DNA of 10,740 bases from a virus: UHGV virus genome UHGV-1944544; one strand, 5' to 3'. Below, in pieces: positions 1 through 10,740 of the stretch. A program made the translations under genes and the position numbers. The notes beneath the pieces were generated by a model. That model did not search any database and was not told where the DNA came from. It saw only the letters and a list, made by a program, of their open reading frames with translations. How positions within the stretch are numbered: the stretch's first letter is position 1; every line of letters begins with the position of its first letter.

Positions 1-60
1 GGATACTACATGCGCGCCGGGTTTGGCGTCGCGCTCCAGTTTTAACGGATAGGTAAACAT
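1..60 (-). CDS. hicB: HicB-family antitoxin, N-terminal fragment (gene continues past the window start)
   Basis: Minus-strand ATG at 60-58 translates to MFTYPLKLERDAKPGAHVVS, which fits the HicB N-terminal pattern (M-x-YP-[VL]...G...VS). It sits 30 bp downstream of hicA with an AGGAG Shine-Dalgarno about 7 nt before the ATG. Only 20 codons are visible. Confidence 0.55.
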   Translation of the reverse strand, partial: MFTYPLKLERDAKPGAHVVS

Positions 61-90
61 AGAGAAGCTCCTAGTGAAAAAGGCTGGGGC

Positions 91-273
91 TTAAAGCCCC
101 AGGTCCTTCATTATTTTCTTGCGTAGCGGTTCAGGCATTTCCTTTGAACCGTGGTCCGGGAAAACCGACCGCTTTCCGTTCAGGTTCACTTTCTGATGAC
201 TGCCGCCACCAGGCGCTTTCCTGAACTCTGCCCCTTGCTGGATTAACCAGCGTTTGAACTCTGAATACTTCAC
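91..273 (-). CDS. hicA: HicA-family mRNA interferase toxin (60 aa)
   Basis: Translation MKYSEFKRWLIQQGAEF...GSHQK...GKRSVFPDHG...EPLRKKIMKDLGL matches HicA hallmarks (MKxSEFxRWL, conserved His, RSV.P.H, EPLRK.I.K.LGL). GTG start at 273 with AAGGA about 5 nt upstream. Followed by the hicB fragment in the canonical hicA-then-hicB order. Confidence 0.85.
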   Translation of the reverse strand: MKYSEFKRWLIQQGAEFRKAPGGGSHQKVNLNGKRSVFPDHGSKEMPEPLRKKIMKDLGL

Positions 274-345
274 AAGTTTCCTTATGCAATTTATCCATCA
301 TGGGCGATAAGAATAGTAACACAAAAGATATAAAACACAACAAAA

Positions 346-359
346 ATGTTTATAAACAT
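346..359. promoter_or_regulatory. 14-bp perfect palindrome ATGTTTATAAACAT in the divergent region between hicA and the 506 gene; candidate operator
   Basis: Exact reverse-complement symmetry read from the sequence, about 73-86 bp upstream of the hicA start in AT-rich DNA. No convincing -35/-10 could be assigned; function is inferred. Confidence 0.25.
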
Positions 360-505
360 AACTTCCTTGTTTGGTGGTTGCGTTTTTGGAAAAGCATTTC
401 CGCATATGAAAAAACATCAGCATATGGTGAAAACAACGAAAAATTACTGATGAAATCACACACTGGATAAGCTGCCACGAAATCGGAAACCTTTTGCGGT
501 GAATC

Positions 506-2191
506 ATGGCAACGAAAGACAAAAACAAGGGCTTTCTGTCGGCATTGAAGAAAGCCTTCAGCGGTGGTGATGTTACGCCTGCCGATCCGGTCGTATTTGC
601 GAGCGGGCATAGCGTCGTTGCTCGTTCTGGCCTGTCCGCCTTGCGTCCTGGCATCCTGGGGAGCAATAGCGATGGCATGACAAGCGCGGCGGATACTGTA
701 TCTATATCGGCAGAATTACCGAGTGACCGCCTGCAAAAATACAACATACTGGAGACGATGGCGAAAAGCCCGACTATCTCCACAGCATTAAACATTCACA
801 TTGCGCATTCTCTGGCTCCATCAAAAAAAACAGGCCTCGCATTTATTCTCTCTCCGAAAAATGGGGCGGATAAGGAGGCTGTAAGTCGATGTGAGGAATT
901 GACCGCTGATTTAAGCTCAATGATTAATGATGGCCTGCCATCGTGGGCCATGATCATGGCTATTTTCGGTGTGTCGTATATCCGTCCATATGCAGAGCAA
1001 GGGAAGGGGATAACTGGAATTGAGTCGAGCTATTACACGCTCCCTCATTTCGTTCAGGAGTTTTATCGCGGTAGCCAACTTGTCGGATTCAGCGGTGATT
1101 ATATTCTGGATACGCATACTTTGCGCAGAGTTATAACCGAACCGTGGAATCTGGTTTCCATGAAAAACCCGTACTGGATGCCTCAGCATAAAGTAATGCC
1201 AGTAACTTACGGCACTAACGGCTATTCCTTGCTTAGTGAACAGCAGGACAAGCCGTTAATGGAGACGCAGAACTACGGTACGTCGTTTCTTGAATACAGT
1301 TATGAACCCTACCTGAATTTATGTGCCGCGCTTGCTGCGCTGAAAGCAACGCGAAACAACGCTGCAAAAATTGATCGCCTGATTGCACTCACAACGAACA
1401 CGATAGATCCGGTAAACGCGGCGAATTATACGCGCGGGGTCAGCCAGGCACTGAAGCGTCATAGCGACCTCGTAGCGCAACGGTCGATTAATTCTAATGC
1501 TCTCCCATCTGTACTTAACCATCTGATACCCGTCATGGGGGATGGGAAGAACGGGATCACCATTGATACGCAATCTATACCCGCAGATATCAGTGGTATC
1601 GAAGACGTTATGTTTCATCTCCGACAGCTCGCGGCAAGCCTCGGTATTGACGCAACAATGCTTGGCTGGGCTGATCAGATGAGTGGTGGACTTGGAGAAG
1701 GCGGTTGGCAGCAAACAGCTATCCAGGCCGCCTTACGCGCGAACTGGATCAGACAGGCCGCCCAGCGGACTATTTATCGGCTTCATGACATTCACCTCGC
1801 TTATAAATACGGGAAGGTTTACACCGAAAAAAACCGTCCTTATGACGTGCAATTCAACTCAATGAACACAGCTATCCAGGAAGAGGAAAACCGAGAGCTG
1901 GATGCGCGCGCCAACTTCGTAGCTGTCATCTCGCAAATAATGGACCAGATCCAGAACAACCCGAAACTGGCGGGTAGCGACGCGTTTATGCGTTATCTGT
2001 TCACCGAACAGCTTCGTATCGACGATGACACTCTCAACGTAATGATCAAAGAGTTTAAGGCGAATGAATCAGAGCAAAACAACGAGCATGGTATGTACGA
2101 ATCCGCGCCGTTGTCGTCCGGTGACGATCCGGAAAACTGGACGCAAGAACAATTAATCAACTTTGCAAAATTTGTGATGAGCAATAATTAA
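506..2191 (+). CDS. hypothetical protein (561 aa), first gene of a two-gene operon
   Basis: Long uninterrupted ORF from ATG 506 with a weak GGTGA Shine-Dalgarno. Its stop lies 13 bp before the next ATG. No Walker A or other catalytic motif recognised; the N-terminal ~80 aa are Gly/Ser/Ala-rich. A resemblance to phage portal proteins is speculative. Confidence 0.7.
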   Translation: MATKDKNKGFLSALKKAFSGGDVTPADPVVFASGHSVVARSGLSALRPGILGSNSDGMTSAADTVSISAELPSDRLQKYNILETMAKSPTISTALNIHIAHSLAPSKKTGLAFILSPKNGADKEAVSRCEELTADLSSMINDGLPSWAMIMAIFGVSYIRPYAEQGKGITGIESSYYTLPHFVQEFYRGSQLVGFSGDYILDTHTLRRVITEPWNLVSMKNPYWMPQHKVMPVTYGTNGYSLLSEQQDKPLMETQNYGTSFLEYSYEPYLNLCAALAALKATRNNAAKIDRLIALTTNTIDPVNAANYTRGVSQALKRHSDLVAQRSINSNALPSVLNHLIPVMGDGKNGITIDTQSIPADISGIEDVMFHLRQLAASLGIDATMLGWADQMSGGLGEGGWQQTAIQAALRANWIRQAAQRTIYRLHDIHLAYKYGKVYTEKNRPYDVQFNSMNTAIQEEENRELDARANFVAVISQIMDQIQNNPKLAGSDAFMRYLFTEQLRIDDDTLNVMIKEFKANESEQNNEHGMYESAPLSSGDDPENWTQEQLINFAKFVMSNN

Positions 2192-2204
2192 CCGGAGGGA
2201 AATA

Positions 2205-3203
2205 ATGCAATCACTGAATACCGTTACGGATCGCTTCTCCCTGGTAGAGAAAATCCGCAAACACACACCTCAGAACAATCGCAATTACGTTATCCAGTCG
2301 GTACGAGACACATTCAACTCGCCAGAAACAAAAGAGCGTATCGCACTGGGTGAGATGTATGGTTATTACGGTCATGGTCGCCGGGCGATGCACTATAACA
2401 AAACGAAAAGCCTGGACTTGCCGGAAGTCTCTGTTGTGATGGTAGATGGGAAGCCTGTTGTATTGGAGAACGTGCCGTCAAACAGGACTATCGACATTTC
2501 AATTGACGACAACGGCATTGTTACCCATACACAGGAAATACTGGATACGGACACCGGACGTATTGTTCAGGGTATGATTAATTCTGGCGCAGGTGGTTGG
2601 TCATGGGCTACATCTGGTCCAGATTACTCTGTATCCCTGGTAAAGTCTTTTCACGGTTTTGATTACGTAACAGTGCCTAACTATATCAGCCTCGACAAGA
2701 AAAGCCTGATGCTTGAATCAGCAGAAGAACGCGACGCGGCGATTCATGCGGCACTTATCGAACAAGGTTTTACCGATAATGCTGCTACGGATCTGGTTCA
2801 CCACTTTTCAGCAATGAAGAGTCAGCAAGCCATATTCGAATCAGCACAACGTGAAGTTCTGGAGTCGGAACTGATACATCTTGAAGTGGAAAATATGCAG
2901 CTTCGCGACAAACTACGCGACCAGGCCGCGATGATGGAAAGCCAGGGGGAGAACGCAAAGAAATCCCGCCGTATTTTGCGTGATGCTATCCAGGAAATGC
3001 CTGTTTTTATCAGCGCAGAACAGCGCCGGGCGCTCTGCCGTATGCAGTCAGAGGATGATGCACGCATTGTCGCAGCGATGCTTGAATCCCTGGGGGCTAA
3101 TGCCACTTATGGTCTGCCAATATCAGCCAATAAACAACAAGAAATACCGGTGAAAGAGAACAAGACGGTGACTCCGCTGATCTTTGTGTCTAAGAGGATG
3201 TGA
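2205..3203 (+). CDS. hypothetical protein (332 aa) with a predicted alpha-helical/coiled-coil C-terminal half
   Basis: ATG 2205 preceded by a strong GGAGGG Shine-Dalgarno (2194-2199). The C-terminal region (ESELIHLEVENMQLRDKLRDQAAMMESQ...) is heptad-like and charged. No family recognised. Confidence 0.75.
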   Translation: MQSLNTVTDRFSLVEKIRKHTPQNNRNYVIQSVRDTFNSPETKERIALGEMYGYYGHGRRAMHYNKTKSLDLPEVSVVMVDGKPVVLENVPSNRTIDISIDDNGIVTHTQEILDTDTGRIVQGMINSGAGGWSWATSGPDYSVSLVKSFHGFDYVTVPNYISLDKKSLMLESAEERDAAIHAALIEQGFTDNAATDLVHHFSAMKSQQAIFESAQREVLESELIHLEVENMQLRDKLRDQAAMMESQGENAKKSRRILRDAIQEMPVFISAEQRRALCRMQSEDDARIVAAMLESLGANATYGLPISANKQQEIPVKENKTVTPLIFVSKRM

Positions 3204-3316
3204 GCTAAAAGCTAGCTTAATTTTCTAACACAGTGTGTTTTTATACACTGTTGATCCGACGGCGCGTGATCGAGTAGGATCGCGGTCACTGCTCCGGTAG
3301 CGACTGCCAAAAAAGC

Positions 3317-3340
3317 AAAAGCCGCTGAGAAGCGGCTTTT
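3317..3340 (+). terminator. Rho-independent terminator downstream of the 506-3203 operon
   Basis: Perfect inverted repeat AAAAGCCGCT / AGCGGCTTTT around a GAGA tetraloop, with the GC core followed by TTTT. The flanking A-tract and T-tract make it potentially bidirectional. Confidence 0.55.
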
Positions 3341-3401
3341 GGGTGTATAAATCTCCGGACATAGATTTATACGGTAGATAGATTTTTCACGGTACTATCT
3401 G

Positions 3402-4361
3402 GTGAGTATTTTAAATTCAGTTTCAGTAACTTTCAACACTTCTGAGTATAAAAACAACACTGAATACCACAAAAAAATCAAAGGTCATCAGTTGAGTTTT
3501 TTTGCTCGTCATAGCGGTTTTCTTTCCCCTTCACATAGCGCCATTATTGCCGAGTTCGCCAACCTGGCAGGAGCTACCGATGAATACATGATCCGTCGCT
3601 CATATGCTGATATGTCCGAGATTACAGGACGCAGTATTTCTACTGTGCGCCGGGCATTTACCGAAGCGACGAAGTGCGGAATGCTTGTTAAGCAGCATCA
3701 GGTAGCGAATAACAATGCTCAGGTGTGTAACGTGTACCGGTTTACAACACAATTTCTCCACTTCATTCATGTAGCAATGGAGATAGGGAGTAAGCAGGGC
3801 ATCAAATTTGCCAACGCCACAAAACTGGTTAAGCAGTTGATTTCAAAGGTTCGTTATTTTTTTGAAACTGGGAACCCCCTGTTCAAATTGAACAAGTCCC
3901 CCCATGTTCAAAATGAACAGCCAATAGAAAATAAGAGTCACTCTATAGCCAAAAGAAGAGAAAGATCATGCGCGGTTCAGCCAAAGGCTTCACCAGCAGA
4001 TAGTTCTCAAGCGGATAATGGCTTGCTGGATAAAAAAACAGTAATCAGGGAAGAACATACCAACCACTGCCTGGCGGCAGCAAAAGCGAGAGCTGCAAAG
4101 CGTCGTTCAGACGAGGGGTACGCAAAACGGCAGGCTCTGTATCGTACCGCTGAAAAACTGGCAAAAAAATTTGCATGGTTACGTAGTGCTACCACAGTGA
4201 ATAAGCCCAAACGATCCAGCGCCCTGGATTTCTCTATGGATTATTCTGCTTCCCAGGGATGTGCAACCATCAATGAAGCATTTGACCTGATGAAACAGCG
4301 TGGCTATCGGTCTGAATTTGACCGGGAAGACTGGTCAATTCCGGAGGGCTTTCGGGGATGA
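3402..4361 (+). CDS. helix-turn-helix DNA-binding protein, possibly a replication initiator or regulator; N-terminus uncertain
   Basis: ORF of 319 aa from GTG 3402 with no Shine-Dalgarno. The first in-frame ATG is at 3588, where the nearest AGGAG is 15 nt upstream. HTH-like segment MSEITGRSISTVRRAFTEATKCGMLV, then a basic Lys/Arg-rich C-terminal half. The AT-rich 5' part contains direct repeats. Confidence 0.55.
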   Translation: MSILNSVSVTFNTSEYKNNTEYHKKIKGHQLSFFARHSGFLSPSHSAIIAEFANLAGATDEYMIRRSYADMSEITGRSISTVRRAFTEATKCGMLVKQHQVANNNAQVCNVYRFTTQFLHFIHVAMEIGSKQGIKFANATKLVKQLISKVRYFFETGNPLFKLNKSPHVQNEQPIENKSHSIAKRRERSCAVQPKASPADSSQADNGLLDKKTVIREEHTNHCLAAAKARAAKRRSDEGYAKRQALYRTAEKLAKKFAWLRSATTVNKPKRSSALDFSMDYSASQGCATINEAFDLMKQRGYRSEFDREDWSIPEGFRG

Positions 4362-4501
4362 TGTTGCGATTGACTGTACAATAACCGTGCGGCGGGAATT
4401 TCATCGCTCTAAAATGTATGTTAGAAAATTAAATTGATGTTTCTAATCAAGAATGTATGATTTATATCGTCACTAAAAAACAGCATCTGATAAAAATTCT
4501 G

Positions 4502-4530
4502 TTGATCTTTCTAATGTTCAGGCTTATATT
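4502..4530 (+). promoter_or_regulatory. Candidate sigma70 promoter (-35 TTGATC, 17-bp spacer, -10 TATATT)
   Basis: Hexamers read at 4502-4507 and 4525-4530. It lies about 250 bp upstream of the 4778 ORF and rha, and precedes the alternative-hairpin region at 4581-4620. Confidence 0.3.
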
Positions 4531-4777
4531 CATGCCGTCGTAGCAAATTCTGCGACCGGGTTTAGCAGCCTGAATGTTAGTGCGGACAACCGCAGATATC
4601 CGATATTGCGGTATTTTTGTGTCCGTAAAACCGCGTTACGCCCAAATTATGGTGGGGCGTGATGGGGAGGCTTCGGCCTGCTGGTTTCACTAACGCCAGT
4701 CTGCTAACCCCGTCACGTCCTGCCACCTGTTTAGCAGCGGGTAGCAGGTTGTTAAACCTGTTAGTGAGGCCGTAACT

Positions 4778-5002
4778 ATGGTTAATGCCAATCCTTGCTC
4801 ACGTCCAGAATTCATCTGGCGTTTTCACTCCCTGCAAAAACACTGCGATCACTTCGCAATTGCCGCAACTGAAAAAGAAGCCCGTTCTCTGATCCCGGAT
4901 CAGTATGGCGTTCTCACTGGTCGTTTCTCTACTTCCCCACAACCAAACACCAATCCCTGGTATCGCAATATTACCAATCCCGGCATTGTGGAGGCTCACT
5001 GA
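4778..5002 (+). CDS. hypothetical small protein (74 aa), translationally coupled to the Rha gene
   Basis: ATG 4778 with GAGG 8 nt upstream. Its TGA stop overlaps the rha ATG (TGATG at 5000-5004). No family recognised. Confidence 0.45.
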   Translation: MVNANPCSRPEFIWRFHSLQKHCDHFAIAATEKEARSLIPDQYGVLTGRFSTSPQPNTNPWYRNITNPGIVEAH

Positions 5003-5943
5003 TGGATATCTGCATTCTCGAAAAGCCATCAATGACAAGCATTGAGATCGCGGAGCTGGTGGGAAAACGTCATGACAATGTGAAACGCACTATTGAGACA
5101 TTAGCCAAAGGTGGCGTTATTGTTCGTCCTCAAATTGAGGTTTTCGAAAAAATCAATAACTTAGGACTACGACGTAGTGTTGAGGCTTACGTCTTCGAAG
5201 GCGAGCAAGGCAAGCGCGATAGCATTATCGTCGTCGCGCAGCTCTCTCCCGAATTCACCGCCCGGCTGGTGGACCGCTGGCGCGAACTGGAGAATGCCCG
5301 GGTACAGTTAAAATCAAAAGCCGAAATCCTGGCCGAAATGGCGCAAATGCATCTTGAGCATGAACGCCGGATCAACGCCGTTAATGCCCAGGTAGCCGAA
5401 GTATCCGCACAAGTGTCCAAAGTCGCTGAAACCGTCGAGCAGATCAAGAAAGGCAATATTCCGGAAGGCTACATTGGCTATCGCCAGTTGGCGGCAAAAT
5501 GCGGCCTGACTGAAGCCAAATGCCGCAACCTGGTCAACGCTTACCGGATACCCACTGATACGCATGAGTTTTTGACGCCAGAGGGGGTATTGTCGCGTCG
5601 TACTATTGTGGCCTTATCTCCCTTCATGAATGCCTTTACCCTGATGATGTCGGAGGCTGAACACCGAGGAAAACGCTGGTATCATCCCAGGATGGGGCTA
5701 TTTCAGGCCATTCACCATCCTGTGCCTGAAAGTCCAAAGGCAAACCTGTCGTTGCATACCGCCAGAGAGAAGATTAAAACAGGGTATGCAACCGTATGCC
5801 GTCGAGCATCCTGGCCTGAAAGTGTCTGGGTATGGCCCGAAAGAGGCTCACGGAAAAACTGGCGCACCATTCGCGACGGCAAGATCTGTGCGATTGATTT
5901 ACAGCCAGAAGATGTAGCAGCGACCGACTGGATTGTTAGTTAA
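5002..5943 (+). CDS. Rha-family phage regulatory protein (313 aa)
   Basis: N-terminal SIEIAELVGKRHDNVKRTIE matches the Rha-domain signature (...AE.FGKRHDNV.R.I...). GGAGG Shine-Dalgarno 8 nt upstream of ATG 5002. Confidence 0.8.
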   Translation: MDICILEKPSMTSIEIAELVGKRHDNVKRTIETLAKGGVIVRPQIEVFEKINNLGLRRSVEAYVFEGEQGKRDSIIVVAQLSPEFTARLVDRWRELENARVQLKSKAEILAEMAQMHLEHERRINAVNAQVAEVSAQVSKVAETVEQIKKGNIPEGYIGYRQLAAKCGLTEAKCRNLVNAYRIPTDTHEFLTPEGVLSRRTIVALSPFMNAFTLMMSEAEHRGKRWYHPRMGLFQAIHHPVPESPKANLSLHTAREKIKTGYATVCRRASWPESVWVWPERGSRKNWRTIRDGKICAIDLQPEDVAATDWIVS

Positions 5944-8541: not shown

Positions 8542-8579
8542 TTGCATTTTGCCCTTTCCGCGTGTAGTGTGTATACACA
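8542..8579 (+). promoter_or_regulatory. Putative higBA promoter with a 12-bp palindromic operator (TGTGTATACACA)
   Basis: Perfect palindrome at 8568-8579 overlapping a candidate -10 (TATACA, 8572-8577), with -35 TTGCCC at 8549-8554 (17-bp spacer); an alternative pairing is TTGCAT 8542-8547 with TAGTGT 8565-8570. It lies 26-37 bp upstream of the higB start. Confidence 0.4.
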
Positions 8580-8604
8580 AGTCACGCACACGGATGGAAT
8601 TATT

Positions 8605-8886
8605 TTGATTAAGTCATTTCGCCATAAGGGGCTTGAACGCTTTTTCAAGACAGGTTCAACCGCAGGCATTCAGACCAAACATGCGGTTAAGCTACGCATT
8701 CAATTGACTGCTCTTAATACAGCTAAACGCCCGGACGATATGTCTGCGCCTGGATGGGAATTACACCCACTAAAGGGGGCGGACCTTAAAGGTCACTGGG
8801 CAATATCGGTAAACGGTAACTGGCGACTTACCTTCCGATTTGAAGGAGAAGACGCAATTCTAGTTGACTATCAGGATTATCATTGA
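8605..8886 (+). CDS. higB: HigB toxin (RelE/ParE superfamily, plasmid-maintenance-killer type), about 93 aa
   Basis: From TTG 8605 the product reads (M)[13 protein letters not shown]...[41 protein letters not shown], matching the HigB signature (MIKSFxHKGL ... HPLKGD..G.W.I.V..NWR.TF.F...DA.I..Y.DYH). GGATGGA Shine-Dalgarno at 8592-8598. The track ORF opens earlier, at TTG 8542. Confidence 0.85.
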
Positions 8887-8894
8887 GGAACACT

Positions 8895-9176
8895 ATGAGT
8901 CGTATGCATAATCCCGCGCATCCAGGCGCGGTTCTTCGTGAATATTTGGGAGACATGTCAGTCACAGACGCAGCTGCTGCATTAGGCATTACTCGCACGG
9001 CACTTTCCCGAATTCTGAACGAAAAAACAGGTATTTCTGCTGATATGGCACTTCGTCTGGAGTCCGCTCTTGGAACCAGTGCCGAAATGTGGACCGGTAT
9101 GCAATCCCAGTATGAGCTTTGGGTTGCTTCGCAAACCGCTCGCCCAAACATCCGTCCATTATTTTCCCACGCATAA
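8895..9176 (+). CDS. higA: HigA antitoxin (XRE-type HTH), about 93 aa
   Basis: From ATG 8895 the product reads [18 protein letters not shown]...[37 protein letters not shown], matching the HigA family (MHNP.HPG ... S...L.GK.GIS..MALRL...GTS.E.W). GAGG Shine-Dalgarno 6 nt upstream; the start is 8 bp after the higB stop. Confidence 0.85.
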
Positions 9177-9598: not shown

Positions 9599-10740
9599 CT
9601 TCCAGAAAAATCAGGACGGGCGATATATCACTGACGGCCTGTCCTCTAAGGATTTCACACGCGTATTTGAACTCATCAGGAAAGAGCAAAACCGCAAACG
9701 CCGCCAGGCGCACAGGACACTCACGCCGGGCAGGCTTAGGAATAAATCAGCCGAAGACATTCTTAAGCTGGGGAAAAAGAAAGGCGGCACGTTCTTTACG
9801 CGTGACGATCTGAAAGGCTTCGAAAAGCTGCGAAGCAAAGCACGCGAAAAATATGACAGCAAGACGGCTGGCATTACATACGCACAACTGGTAGCGTCCA
9901 GCCAGGCTATCGATATTAAGCGAGCAAATAACGCCGTAGACGACGGTTCTGGTATCAAAAGAGCTACGCCCGTATCTCTTCGTCACAATGTGATTAATAT
10001 CCGCGTGGAAGCGTCCGATATATCCGTTCACCAGCACCACATTGTCCGGGTACGTTTTGAAGAATGGGATCAGATAGTCGATGACATCGCAGAAGACGAT
10101 AAATCAGCCCTGAAAGTCACAAAATCACTGTGTGCCGGGCGAGTGTCTTTCGACTGTGACTGCGGTCGCCATCAATACTGGTATCGCTACATCGCCACTG
10201 CGGGTAACTTTGCCCTGGCCCCGCCAAAAGAATACGCCTATCCAAAAGTTCGCAACCCTAAGCTGCAAGGCGTCGCCTGTAAACATGTGATCCACTCAAT
10301 GACACGACTACAGTCTGCCAGTTGGCAGATGAGTATTGCTCGCGCCCTGCAAAAAGCTGCAACGCAAGTTGCCTTTGGTGACGATCGCCGCCGCACGACA
10401 AAACACTTCACAAAAGAAGACGAGAAGGCGTTCAATCGAAACCGTAGCAGCAAAACGAATGTTGAGGCAGCTAAACGTGAATGGAAGCTCTATCAGAAAC
10501 GCCAGGCCGCTTTAAGCTCAAAACTGGCAAAGGACAACGGTAAGATCGACAAGCTGCGCGACCAACTGACCAGGGCCAGAAAGTTATCCGACGCACAGAA
10601 AAAACGGGCAGCGGCAAAAGAAGCTGCTTTGCAACGGGAGAAGCAGAAAAACAAGGAACTTCAGCAACGCCTTGCTGATCAGTTCGCACTGAAGAAGCAG
10701 GCGTTCATTGATGCGCTTGTTATGGCAGGAACACCACCAG
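9591..10740 (+). CDS. large hypothetical protein, partial (at least 383 aa, continues past the window end), with a CxC...CxH putative zinc-binding motif and a basic coiled-coil region
   Basis: Frame translated by hand from ATG 9591 to the window end with no stop codon; GGAG lies 7 nt upstream. Cys cluster FDCDCGRH...(38 aa)...CKHVIH encoded at 10155-10295. From about 10390 onward the sequence is Lys/Arg/Gln/Ala-rich and heptad-like. Absent from the supplied track because it has no in-window stop. Confidence 0.7.
   Translation, partial: MPDFQKNQDGRYITDGLSSKDFTRVFELIRKEQNRKRRQAHRTLTPGRLRNKSAEDILKLGKKKGGTFFTRDDLKGFEKLRSKAREKYDSKTAGITYAQLVASSQAIDIKRANNAVDDGSGIKRATPVSLRHNVINIRVEASDISVHQHHIVRVRFEEWDQIVDDIAEDDKSALKVTKSLCAGRVSFDCDCGRHQYWYRYIATAGNFALAPPKEYAYPKVRNPKLQGVACKHVIHSMTRLQSASWQMSIARALQKAATQVAFGDDRRRTTKHFTKEDEKAFNRNRSSKTNVEAAKREWKLYQKRQAALSSKLAKDNGKIDKLRDQLTRARKLSDAQKKRAAAKEAALQREKQKNKELQQRLADQFALKKQAFIDALVMAGTPP

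What the first reader, a model, noticed from the sequence alone, without database searches (positions are those of the whole stretch)
4362..4777. 416-bp structured non-coding region upstream of the coupled small ORF and rha: promoter, mutually exclusive hairpins, repeated motifs
Several features cluster here. (1) A candidate sigma70 promoter at 4502-4530. (2) TGCGG (4581-4585), CCGCA (4590-4594) and TGCGG (4607-4611) can pair in two mutually exclusive ways; the second pairing is followed by ATTTTTGTG, an attenuator-like arrangement. (3) TTAGCAG occurs at 4562-4568 and 4731-4737, with its reverse complement at 4701-4707. (4) Inverted repeat TTAGAAA/TTTCTAA (4422-4448) flanked by direct repeats AATGTATG. 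(5) A GGAGGC-UUCG-GCCUGC hairpin near 4666-4681. Together these suggest an sRNA or a regulated leader with operator sites controlling the Rha operon.
Basis: seen in the sequence. Interest (0 to 1): 0.5.

Follow-up and report, generated by a model that had tools for sequence, protein, structure and literature searches.

The report
P1-type c4 antisense-RNA immunity leader
The 416-bp gap is the well-known immI control region of a P1/D6-family phage-plasmid: a repressor operator, promoters, a small antisense RNA (c4) and its pairing sites, which together keep a cell-division inhibitor and an antirepressor switched off. It is an ordinary member of a known system, with one testable twist in its leader.

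Summary
All five observations are in the sequence; one is 1-2 nt off. Together they make up the immI regulatory leader of a D6-like, P1-family phage-plasmid.

- **Rfam hits:** C4 antisense RNA at 4645-4730 (70 bits, threshold 45) and its a1/b1 target motif at 4524-4576 (53.9 bits, threshold 46.7).
- **Homology:** from the -35 hexamer at 4502 onward, the DNA is about 90% identical to the characterised P1 and P7 regions.
- **Repeated TTAGCAG and its complement:** these are RNA pairing sites a1, a2 and a', not protein operators. GTTAGTG(A)/CACTAAC are b1, b2 and b'.
- **Covariation:** in 115 related loci, a1/a'/a2 and b1/b'/b2 change together without exception.
- **Specificity:** this window combines the P7-type a with the P1-type b.
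- **TTAGAAA arm:** it lies inside a probable D6-type C1 operator (4413-4435).
- **"Attenuator":** the second pairing plus U-run aligns with the intrinsic terminator of the IsrK leader RNA. The first pairing is a near-isoenergetic anti-terminator that overlaps b1.

This suggests, but does not prove, that c4 binding promotes leader termination.

Downstream lie an Icd homologue and a Rha-type antirepressor that replaces P1 Ant1/2.

Verdict: a known kind of system. Interest is low to moderate.

The parts
4413..4435 (-). Putative D6-type C1 repressor operator (AATTTAATTTTCTAACATACATT).
   Evidence: A PWM built only from 10 phage D6 sites scores 28.6 here; the D6 sites score 17.5-31.7 on themselves. 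D6 has about 14 such sites, mostly intergenic, upstream of c1, lpa, ref, repL and c4. The P1 operator consensus is absent from the window and from D6.
4434..4461 (+). Upstream promoter-like site, TTGATG-16-TATGAT. It occupies the position of P1 P2c4 (former P51a), and its -35 abuts the operator.
   Evidence: Consensus scan. D6 keeps TTGCTG-16-TATGAT at the same place. In P1 the operator Oc4 overlaps the -35 of P2c4. Function is inferred.
4502..4530 (+). Promoter homologous to P1 P1c4 (former P51b): TTGATC-17-TATATT.
   Evidence: Aligned with the annotated P1 -35 and -10. Homology to P1 and P7 begins exactly here.
4537..4556 (+). Leader hairpin 1 (GUCGUAG-CAAAUU-CUGCGAC).
   Evidence: First hairpin of the Rfam c4-a1b1 and isrK models. 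Present in the minimum-free-energy (MFE) fold.
4557..4572 (+). a1 hairpin. The a1 target site UUAGCAG is at 4562-4568, in and around the loop.
   Evidence: Rfam c4-a1b1, 53.9 bits. Maps onto the annotated P1 a1 site. Covaries with a' and a2 in 115 loci.
4576..4583 (+). b1 target site (GUUAGUG; P1-type).
   Evidence: Maps onto the annotated P1 b1 site. 7-bp complement of b' at 4688-4694. Covaries with b' and b2.
4581..4594 (+). Its 5' arm overlaps the last 2 nt of b1.
   Evidence: -7.0 kcal/mol. It is the MFE element of the nascent leader up to the U-run. Its probability is 0.68 in the free leader and 0.01 when b1 is blocked. The compensatory change 4583-4592 CG->UA is seen in L064.
4589..4621 (+).
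   Evidence: Aligns with the terminator of Rfam isrK (46 bits, E 5e-9, threshold 50). Compensatory changes 4592-4609 GC->AU and 4594-4607 AU->CG/UA occur in divergent loci. IsrK is experimentally a 77-nt RNA ending at this terminator, with partial read-through (PMC4825925).
4581..4627 (+). Long hairpin of the read-through RNA: an outer helix, 4581-4588/4620-4627, enclosing the terminator stem.
   Evidence: MFE -17.9 kcal/mol. Compensatory changes 4583-4625 CG->UA and 4586-4622 AU->GC. The same architecture is seen in L124 and L125. Its role is unknown.
4651..4727 (+). c4 antisense RNA, 77 nt in its mature form by homology. Loop b' is CACUAAC at 4688-4694 and a' is CUGCUAA at 4701-4707. The 5' end is GGU and the 3' end is ...GCCACC.
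   Evidence: Rfam C4, 70 bits against a threshold of 45. Maps onto the annotated P1 c4 RNA and differs from it at only 3 positions. RNase P processing at GGU is reported for P1 and P7 (PMC5320573).
4731..4737 (+). a2 target site (UUAGCAG; P7-type).
4760..4769 (+). b2 target site GUUAGUGA (4760-4767), overlapping the Shine-Dalgarno GAGG (4766-4769) of icd.
   Evidence: The 8-bp complement of 4687-4694 ends 8 nt before the ATG at 4778.
4778..5002 (+). icd: a 74-aa Icd-like cell-division inhibitor, the translationally controlled first cistron.
   Evidence: 61% identity to P1 Icd over 61 aa, E 8e-27. NCBIfam phage_ICD_like, 40 bits against a cutoff of 25. Annotated as Icd-like in matching plasmids.
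5002..5943 (+). Rha-family antirepressor candidate (313 aa). Its start overlaps the icd stop (TGATG).
   Evidence: Pfam Phage_pRha, 35.9 bits against a cutoff of 29.9. No significant similarity to P1 Ant1, E 0.11. D6 annotates the homologues as anti-repressor Ant.

Best explanation
The region is the cis-regulatory leader of an immI-type immunity operon (c4-icd-antirepressor) carried by a D6-like member of the P1 family of phage-plasmids.

Transcription starts at one or two sigma-70 promoters. The upstream one (4434-4461) sits next to a C1-repressor operator (4413-4435). The downstream one (4502-4530) is the homologue of P1 P51b.

The transcript first makes a structured leader that carries two short target sites, a1 and b1. 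A hairpin plus U-run follows, where some transcripts probably stop. Read-through RNA contains the 77-nt c4 RNA, which RNase P cuts out of the precursor.

The two exposed c4 loops, a' and b', pair with a2 and b2 just downstream. Because b2 overlaps the ribosome-binding site of icd, icd is not translated. As in P1, the untranslated message is then prematurely terminated, so the translationally coupled Rha-type antirepressor is not made and lysogeny holds.

The a and b sequences set immunity specificity. Here they are a of the P7 type and b of the P1 type.

What is shown here: identity by covariance model and by 90% DNA homology, site-by-site mapping, and three-way covariation. What is inferred from P1/P7 experiments: processing, translational blockage and polarity.
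For: - **Rfam:** C4 scores 70 bits (threshold 45) and c4-a1b1 scores 53.9 bits (threshold 46.7).
- **Homology:** 87-91% DNA identity to the P1, P7 and RCS47 immI regions from window 4502 to 4889, and 88% to D6 from 4404.
- **Mapping:** every annotated P1 feature (promoter P1c4, a1, b1, c4, a2, b2, icd ATG) maps base for base onto the window.
- **Covariation:** in 115 loci with 3 a-types and 8 b-types, a1 = a2 = the complement of a', and b1 = b2 = the complement of b', with no exception. The same a1-b1 / c4 / a2-b2 layout is found in most of 57 C4-like loci from other genera.
- **Genes:** icd is a homologue of P1 icd. The stop and start codons overlap. The second gene carries a Rha domain.
- **Distribution:** 655 of 665 matching places in E. 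coli lie on plasmids of about 90 kb.
- **Literature:** c4 is a 77-nt RNase P-processed antisense RNA whose b' loop occludes the RBS. Four nucleotides of a'/b' separate P1 from P7 immunity (PMC5320573). Both C1 and c4 are needed to shut off ant (PMC8198154).
Against: - Nothing has been measured for this element: no transcript ends, no processing data and no immunity phenotype.
- The antirepressor is not homologous to P1 Ant1/2, so its antirepressor function is an assumption based on position and annotation.
- The operator is a motif inference from the D6 genome, not a demonstrated binding site.
- The window itself is not colinear with any complete plasmid downstream of about 4988-5707. The operon's second gene may therefore be a recombinant or an assembly join.
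Confidence: 0.9

Rival explanations
1. This concerns the sub-function of a1/b1 and the two exclusive hairpins: c4-responsive transcription attenuation. In the nascent leader the hairpin UGCGG-ACAA-CCGCA forms first and holds the 5' arm of the terminator, so RNA polymerase reads through. When c4 is abundant its b' loop pairs with b1, which overlaps that hairpin by 2 nt. The terminator (4589-4612 plus the U-run) then forms and transcription stops before c4, icd and rha. This would give negative autoregulation of c4 and a second lock on the antirepressor, as in P4 CI/seqA.
For: - The two hairpins are nearly isoenergetic (-7.0 against -7.6 kcal/mol), and the anti-terminator is the MFE element until the U-run is made.
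- Blocking b1 raises the terminator probability from 0.23 to 0.87 in the window, and flips the MFE in 4 of 5 divergent leaders.
- In 23 diverse leaders the median terminator probability goes from 0.75 to 0.97 (Wilcoxon 9e-5). Blocking a1, or a block shifted by 3 nt, has no such effect.
- 13 of 23 leaders have a segment of at least 5 nt complementary to the terminator's 5' arm that overlaps the last 2-3 nt of b1. Its sequence differs between lineages: UGCGG, GGUGG, GGCGC.
- Coordinated changes at 4583, 4592, 4609 and 4625 in L064 keep both structures.
- The authors of the IsrK paper raise the same idea for STnc1160, by analogy with P4 CI (PMC4825925).
Against: - The evidence is thermodynamic prediction only.
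- The leaders are phylogenetically related, so the p-values are optimistic.
- In about half of the diverse leaders, and in phage P1 itself (terminator probability 0.89 when free), the terminator is already favoured without blocking.
- The enterobacterial isrK-type leaders have only a 3-nt segment.
- In the Gifsy-1 system, constitutive STnc1160 did not reduce the IsrK effect.
- I could not retrieve the original P1 papers to see whether this was tested.
Confidence: 0.4
2. This also concerns the sub-function of the leader. Transcripts ending at the terminator form an IsrK-like short RNA of about 80 nt that carries a1 and b1. It acts in trans as a decoy for c4, or as an opener of the long transcript, and so activates icd/rha translation when the promoter fires strongly.
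For: - The leader 4537-4618 matches the isrK model over its full length (46 bits, E 5e-9).
- True isrK and C4 pairs occur in tandem, at threshold, in mEp460 and in the second immI-like module of D6-like plasmids.
- In Salmonella the short IsrK binds the read-through transcript and switches on translation of the downstream ORF and the antirepressor-like AnrP (PMC4825925).
- a1 and b1 are under the same selection as a2 and b2.
Against: - The score is below Rfam's curated threshold of 50.
- The Gifsy-1 first ORF overlaps the C4-like RNA, an architecture different from icd here.
- There are no data on a short leader RNA in P1-like phages.
- This explanation is compatible with the attenuation model rather than exclusive of it.
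Confidence: 0.3
3. a1 and b1 act only in cis. In the unprocessed precursor they pair with a' and b', which keeps c4 inactive or shapes the precursor for RNase P. The hairpin plus U-run is then merely a stabilising structure of the leader.
For: - The complementarity between the a1 hairpin and the a' region extends to 14 of 16 nt (4557-4572 against 4697-4712).
- A4558 occurs only together with U4711, in 21 of 21 cases.
- The IsrK 'structure A' contains such a cis helix, supported by compensatory mutations.
- The long hairpin 4581-4627 is conserved.
Against: - The 4558/4711 association may be linkage with the a-type.
- This model does not explain why a U-run always follows the hairpin, or why a segment overlapping b1 mimics the terminator's 3' arm.
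Confidence: 0.2
4. The repeated TTAGCAG/CTGCTAA motifs are operator sites for a DNA-binding protein (the HTH or Rha protein), as the first reader suggested testing by EMSA.
For: Only the fact that the motif is repeated in direct and inverted orientation.
Against: - The three copies lie in the a1 hairpin loop, the unpaired a' segment of c4 and the a2 site of the annotated P1 system.
- They covary as complements, not as identical copies, in 115 loci, together with a second interleaved trio. That is the signature of RNA-RNA pairing.
Confidence: 0.02

Closest known systems
immI operon of phages P1 and P7 (P51a/b promoters, Op51/Oc4, a1-b1, c4 RNA, a2-b2, icd, ant1/ant2)
   Same: Same order and spacing of promoter, a1, b1, c4, a2, b2 and icd. 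DNA identity is about 90% from 4502 to 4889. The c4 RNA differs from P1 c4 at 3 positions and from P7 c4 at 2. The first cistron, icd, has its stop overlapping the start of the next gene.
   Different: - The specificity is a mosaic: a as in P7, b as in P1.
- The antirepressor is a Rha-domain protein unrelated in sequence to Ant1/Ant2.
- The upstream 140 bp, including the operator, is of the D6 type. The P1 operator consensus is absent.
- The upstream neighbour is repL rather than the sim genes.
First immI-like module of phage D6 (orf20 repL - c4 - orf19 icd - orf18 ant)
   Same: Same gene order (prt, pro, repL, leader, icd, Rha-type ant). 88% identity across 4404-5002. Same operator-like motif and upstream promoter.
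   Different: D6 has a of the P1 type and its own b type (ACUUACG). Both specificity elements therefore differ from the window.
IsrK - STnc1160 - orf45 - anrP locus of Salmonella prophage Gifsy-1 (Rfam isrK RF01394)
   Same: The leader has two hairpins, a single-stranded spacer and an intrinsic terminator. It is followed by a processed C4-like RNA and an antirepressor-like gene expressed through a coupled small ORF.
   Different: The window scores 46 bits, below the isrK threshold of 50. In Gifsy-1 the small ORF overlaps the C4-like RNA, and the short RNA is described as an activator. The two Rfam families isrK and c4-a1b1 overlap on this leader but are not in one clan.
Satellite phage P4 immunity (CI RNA with seqA and seqC)
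   Same: A processed small RNA, cut from the leader of the operon it controls, pairs with one site upstream and one site downstream of itself (as described in PMC4825925).
   Different: In P4 the outcome is premature transcription termination. For P1-type c4 the demonstrated outcome is translational block of icd, and termination at the leader is only my hypothesis here. No sequence comparison with P4 was made.
Antisense-RNA-driven attenuation in plasmids pT181 / pIP501 (from my own knowledge)
   Same: It works like the attenuation hypothesis: binding of a small RNA to a nascent leader decides between an anti-terminator and a terminator fold.
   Different: Those are unrelated sequences. There the antisense RNA is transcribed from the opposite strand of the same DNA, whereas c4 is made from the same strand and acts through two short loops.

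Membership tests
C4 antisense RNA (Rfam RF01695) | Covariance-model score at or above the curated gathering threshold over the full model | tested here: met
   70 bits against 45, model positions 1-87 of 87, window 4645-4730.
C4 antisense RNA (Rfam RF01695) | Long closing stem, UUCG-type tetraloop hairpin, second hairpin whose loop is b', and an unpaired a' segment | tested here: met
   Rfam alignment. The same fold appears in the MFE of the long transcript. Stem pairs vary only by GC<->GU or compensated changes in 61 unique relatives.
C4 antisense RNA (Rfam RF01695) | a' and b' complementary to sites flanking the RBS of the downstream gene | tested here: met
   a'/a2 is 7 bp. b'/b2 is 8 bp and overlaps GAGG, 8 nt before the ATG. 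Covariation holds in 115 loci.
C4 antisense RNA (Rfam RF01695) | Excision from a longer precursor by RNase P to give a 77-nt RNA | not testable with these tools
   Only the sequence context is present: GGU at 4651 and ...GCCACC at the 3' end, identical to P1.
c4-a1b1 motif (Rfam RF03163) | Score above threshold, two hairpins upstream of c4, and a1/b1 complementary to a'/b' | tested here: met
   53.9 bits against 46.7, window 4524-4576. a1 and b1 covary with a' and b'.
isrK Hfq-binding RNA (Rfam RF01394) | Score at or above the gathering threshold (50 bits) | tested here: not met
   46 bits, E 5e-9, full-length alignment of 4537-4618. It is not filed as a member. The architecture is shared.
isrK Hfq-binding RNA (Rfam RF01394) | Short RNA ending at an intrinsic terminator with partial read-through into a C4-like RNA and an antirepressor gene | tested here: inconclusive
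   The hairpin plus U-run is conserved with compensatory changes. No transcript data exist. The simple terminator scan missed it because the loop is 10 nt.
P1/P7 immI operon | Gene order promoter - c4 - icd - antirepressor, with icd and the antirepressor translationally coupled | tested here: met
   The stop and start overlap (TGATG) at 5000-5004.
P1/P7 immI operon | Antirepressor is Ant1/Ant2 | tested here: not met
   BLASTP against P1 Ant1 gives E 0.11. The protein has a Phage_pRha domain instead.
P1/P7 immI operon | C1 operator of consensus ATTGCTCTAATAAATTT at the upstream promoter | tested here: not met
   No match with up to 3 mismatches in the window. D6 has only chance hits at 4 mismatches. 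A related D6-type motif takes its place.
D6-type C1 operator (motif defined here from the D6 genome) | Match to AWATTARTTTTCTAACAYAWAT, in an intergenic position next to a promoter | tested here: met
   Score 28.6 at 4413-4435, abutting the -35 at 4434. Shuffled windows give 0.79 hits at a score of 8 or more. Binding by C1 was not tested.

The most novel reading that the evidence does not exclude
The upstream sites a1 and b1, whose role is only annotated as 'putative' in P1, may be the sensor of an RNA-controlled attenuator. In this reading, c4 pairing with b1 melts a small anti-terminator hairpin (4581-4594), so the IsrK-type terminator (4589-4621) forms. c4 would then throttle its own precursor and the antirepressor operon at the level of transcription, in addition to the known translational block. 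The same three-segment design recurs with different sequences in C4-like loci of Pseudomonas and other genera. That would unify the P1 c4, Gifsy-1 IsrK and P4 CI systems under one mechanism.
Probability: 0.35. Interest if true: 0.5.

Novelty: new member of a known kind. Interest (0 to 1): 0.3.

Why it matters
For annotation, this region should be labelled as c4 RNA with its targets. None of the matching E. coli plasmid records annotate anything there, and some lambdoid records run an antirepressor CDS straight through the isrK and C4 RNA genes.

For biology, the a and b sites are the immunity "address" of P1-family phage-plasmids, which are common carriers of resistance genes. The survey here shows at least 3 a-types and 8 b-types combined almost freely. 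The six sites are interleaved on the DNA, so a single crossover cannot make a new combination. Knowing the type predicts which phage-plasmids can coexist in or superinfect a strain.

The attenuator hypothesis, if confirmed, would give a function to the long-unexplained a1/b1 sites.

Tried and rejected
- **P1 C1 operator consensus.** A search with up to 3 mismatches found nothing in the window, and up to 4 mismatches in D6 gave only chance hits. I replaced it with a motif derived from D6.
- **TTTCTAA copies at 4440-4446 and 4508-4514.** They score below 8 with that PWM, so I do not call them operators.
- **56-bp matches inside 'Rha/antirepressor' CDSs of lambdoid phages.** I first took these for a coding relic. 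They are in fact the isrK terminator and C4 5' end lying inside an over-extended CDS.
- **Predicted long-range helix 4557-4572 / 4745-4760.** It is broken in many relatives, for example CA in 21 and UU in 11 of 61 sequences, so I dropped it.
- **Extended a1:a' helix.** The 4558/4711 association is suggestive but confounded by linkage to the a-type.
- **Small ORFs inside the region** (4300-4437 +, 4577-4726 -, 4690-4815 -). They overlap the RNA elements and were not pursued.
- **Original P1 papers and the D6 genome paper** (PMC312442, PMC41593, PMC196329, PMC523184, PMC5800970). None is held in the library. Statements about Rho-dependent polarity (Biere, Citron and Schuster 1992) therefore rest on my own knowledge.
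Full report
**What is in the sequence**

The gap between the stop of the repL-like gene (4361) and the ATG of the small ORF (4778) is 416 bp, as stated. Only item 4 is shifted by 1-2 nt.

TTAGCAG and its complement occur nowhere else in the 10.7-kb window. The pentamers TGCGG and CCGCA are common, and the promoter match alone is no better than chance. The case for those two items therefore rests on comparison with relatives.

**Identity**

A scan against Rfam at curated thresholds gives two hits:
- C4 antisense RNA at 4645-4730: 70 bits against a threshold of 45, covering the full model.
- The a1/b1 target motif at 4524-4576: 53.9 bits against 46.7.

The DNA is 87-91% identical to the immI regions of phages P1, P7 and RCS47 over window 4502-4889. 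It is 88% identical to phage D6 over 4404-5002. In E. coli complete genomes the region occurs in 537 of 5426 genomes. Of 665 matching places, 655 are on plasmids, typically about 90 kb, and nothing is annotated under the match.

The neighbours are portal, pro, repL, then Icd-like and Rha-family genes. This is the gene order of phage D6, a P1 relative.

I aligned the window with the richly annotated P1 record. Every P1 feature transfers base for base:

| Feature | Window coordinates |
|---|---|
| Promoter P1c4 (former P51b) | 4502-4507 / 4525-4530 |
| a1 | 4562-4568 |
| b1 | 4576-4583 |
| Mature c4 RNA | 4651-4727 |
| a2 | 4731-4737 |
| b2 | 4760-4767 |
| icd ATG | 4778 |

**Specificity sites and covariation**

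GUUAGUG at 4576-4582 is b1, CACUAAC at 4688-4694 is b' (the loop of the second c4 hairpin), and GUUAGUGA at 4760-4767 is b2. The b2 site overlaps the GAGG Shine-Dalgarno sequence 8 nt before the icd start.

P1, P7 and D6 differ from the window exactly at these sites. The window has the P7 form of a (UUAGCAG/CUGCUAA) and the P1 form of b. D6 has the P1 form of a and its own b.

I scanned viral contigs for the invariant c4 core and obtained 114 further loci. These show 3 a-types and 8 b-types in 15 combinations. In every locus a1 equals a2 and is the complement of a', and b1 equals b2 and is the complement of b'. The window's combination occurs in a handful of these loci.

The order on the DNA is a1, b1, b', a', a2, b2. 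A new combination therefore cannot arise by a single crossover.

The upstream sites a1 and b1 are called only 'putative' in the P1 record. Yet they are under the same constraint as the functional a2 and b2.

The same layout holds well beyond this family. I retrieved 57 structurally valid C4-like loci from Pseudomonas, Serratia, Erwinia, Ralstonia and others. Most have both an upstream and a downstream pair of complementary sites at fixed distances.

**The upstream 140 bp**

Homology to P1 and P7 stops at the -35 hexamer at 4502. Upstream of that, only D6 aligns. The P1 C1-operator consensus is absent from both the window and D6.

D6 does, however, have about 14 copies of AWATTARTTTTCTAACAYAWAT. 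Eleven of these contain the exact core TTTTCTAAC, against about 1.3 expected. Most are intergenic, and they lie upstream of c1, lpa, ref, repL and c4, which are places where P1 has C1 operators.

A matrix made from D6 sites alone scores 28.6 at window 4413-4435 on the minus strand. It scores 14.3 at 3214-3236, upstream of repL. Shuffled windows average 0.79 hits at a score of 8 or more.

The right arm (4440-4446) and the third copy (4508-4514) do not score.

The site abuts the -35 of a second promoter-like element, TTGATG-16-TATGAT at 4434-4461. This mirrors P1, where operator Oc4 overlaps the -35 of the upstream promoter P2c4. The -35 regions of the two promoters are a 23-nt direct repeat, 83% identical. 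That C1 binds here is inference.

**The 'attenuator'**

With relaxed thresholds the leader 4537-4618 aligns end to end with Rfam isrK: 46 bits, E 5e-9, against a threshold of 50. The alignment covers hairpin 1, the a1 hairpin, a spacer containing b1, and then a terminator stem and U-run.

True isrK plus C4 tandems, at threshold, occur in lambdoid phage mEp460 and in the second immI-like module of D6-like plasmids.

IsrK of Salmonella prophage Gifsy-1 is experimentally a 77-nt RNA that ends at this terminator. Part of the transcripts read through into a processed C4-like RNA (STnc1160), a small ORF and an antirepressor-like gene (PMC4825925).

Two divergent relatives (L064, L106) keep several structures through compensatory changes:
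- Terminator stem: 4592-4609 GC to AU, and 4594-4607 AU to CG or UA.
- An outer helix, 4581-4588 with 4620-4627: 4583-4625 CG to UA, and 4586-4622 AU to GC.

The two exclusive hairpins are almost isoenergetic, at -7.0 and -7.6 kcal/mol. In the growing transcript the first one is the minimum-energy element until the polymerase has passed the U-run. After that a long hairpin, 4581-4627, takes over.

The 5' arm of the first hairpin overlaps the last two bases of b1. I modelled c4 occupancy by forbidding b1 from pairing, with these results:
- In the window, terminator probability rises from 0.23 to 0.87.
- The minimum-energy fold flips in 4 of 5 divergent leaders.
- In 32 distinct P1-like leaders, most go from 0-0.45 to 0.8-0.95. 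P1 itself is an exception at 0.89 without blocking.
- In 23 leaders from many genera the median rises from 0.75 to 0.97. Blocking a1, or a block shifted by 3 nt, does nothing.

Thirteen of the 23 diverse leaders have a segment of 5 nt or more that mimics the terminator's 3' arm and overlaps b1. Its sequence differs by lineage: UGCGG, GGUGG, GGCGC.

These sequences are related to each other, and the evidence is thermodynamic. I therefore rate c4-dependent attenuation as a hypothesis at about 0.35-0.4. Two alternatives are not excluded and are partly compatible with it: an IsrK-like decoy or activator role for the short leader RNA, and a purely cis role in the precursor.

**Downstream genes**

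The 74-aa ORF is an Icd homologue. It is 61% identical to P1 Icd over 61 residues and scores 40 bits against a cutoff of 25 for NCBIfam phage_ICD_like. Its stop overlaps the start of a 313-aa protein with a Phage_pRha domain. That protein shows no significant similarity to P1 Ant1. D6 annotates the equivalent genes as antirepressors.

**Mechanism**

By homology with P1 and P7, c4 is cut from the precursor by RNase P at the GGU start. Its b' loop covers the icd ribosome-binding site while a' adds specificity. Four nucleotides distinguish P1 from P7 immunity (PMC5320573). C1 and c4 together shut off the antirepressor (PMC8198154). From my own knowledge (Biere, Citron and Schuster 1992), untranslated icd message is terminated in a Rho-dependent way, so ant is not transcribed. 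None of this has been measured for this element.

**Verdict**

This is a member of a textbook system, detectable by Rfam, and c4 homologues have already been noted in D6-like plasmids (PMC6799933). What is particular to this window:
- a mosaic a(P7)/b(P1) specificity;
- a Rha-type antirepressor;
- a D6-type operator.

What may be new is a function for a1/b1 as the sensor of a leader attenuator. Interest is 0.3.

Noticed in passing
window 4988-5707 (inside rha, 5002-5943): The window is not colinear with any complete E. coli genome or PLSDB plasmid. Positions 2-5707 match the first immI module of D6-like plasmids (repL-c4-icd-rha, 235 aa). Positions from about 4988-5129 to 10740 match the region downstream of their second module (313-aa rha). 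The shared rha 5' part is the junction. This is either a real recombinant between the two paralogous rha genes or an assembly join through a repeat.
   Followed up: partly
L124 2415-2605 (E. coli plasmid pEC361_3); D6 record about 75.2-75.9 kb: D6-like plasmids carry a second immI-like module with its own isrK (60 bits) and C4 (75 bits) RNAs. It has a different specificity (a UUGGUC, b GUCAAAGG) and sits ahead of a second icd-like gene and the 313-aa Rha gene. One element therefore holds two orthogonal c4 circuits.
   Followed up: partly
L125 1077-2228 (phage mEp460 gene mEp460_041); same in Stx2a_1447 (L126): The annotated 'Rha/antirepressor' CDS runs straight across an isrK RNA (1437-1513) and a C4 RNA (1538-1625). 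The likely true start is the ATG at 1683, just after the b2 site. The CDS start is probably mis-annotated in these lambdoid records.
   Followed up: partly
window 4524-4618: Two separate Rfam families describe overlapping parts of the same leader: c4-a1b1 (RF03163, in clan CL00128) and isrK (RF01394, in no clan). They look like one homologous element that was curated twice.
   Followed up: partly
Phage D6 genome (L127/L128): e.g. 193-215, 4626-4648, 9066-9088, 10315-10337, 21260-21282, 54201-54223, 64110-64151, 75974-75996, 76630-76652, 80722-80744, 89942-89964: A 23-nt motif, AWATTARTTTTCTAACAYAWAT, recurs about 14 times, mostly between genes. One instance is an overlapping inverted pair. It is probably the D6-type C1 operator set, related to but distinct from the P1 consensus.
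   Followed up: partly
window 3204-3401 (upstream of repL): This intergenic region has a weaker copy of the operator motif (3214-3236, score 14.3). It also has a GC-rich hairpin with a T-run (AAAAGCCGCTGAGAAGCGGCTTTTGGG, about 3318-3344) and an inverted repeat GTATAAATCT...AGATTTATAC (about 3345-3372). The region is conserved in D6.
   Followed up: no
window 8542-9176: A toxin-antitoxin pair. The 8883-9176 ORF is a HigA-family antitoxin (TIGR02607, 97.7 bits). The ORF just upstream corresponds to a gene annotated as a RelE/ParE-family toxin in pEC361_3.
   Followed up: partly
L124 8709-8894 (about 100 nt beyond the right end of the part matching the window): An sroH RNA match (113 bits against a threshold of 80) lies on the D6-like plasmid next to a 'stationary phase growth adaptation protein' gene. 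It is outside the window.
   Followed up: no
window 4558 and 4711, across 61 unique relatives: A at 4558 (a1 hairpin stem) is found only together with U at 4711 (c4 closing stem): 21 AU, 36 GC, 4 GU, and no AC. This hints at an extended a1:a' helix of about 16 nt, but it is confounded by linkage to the a-type.
   Followed up: partly
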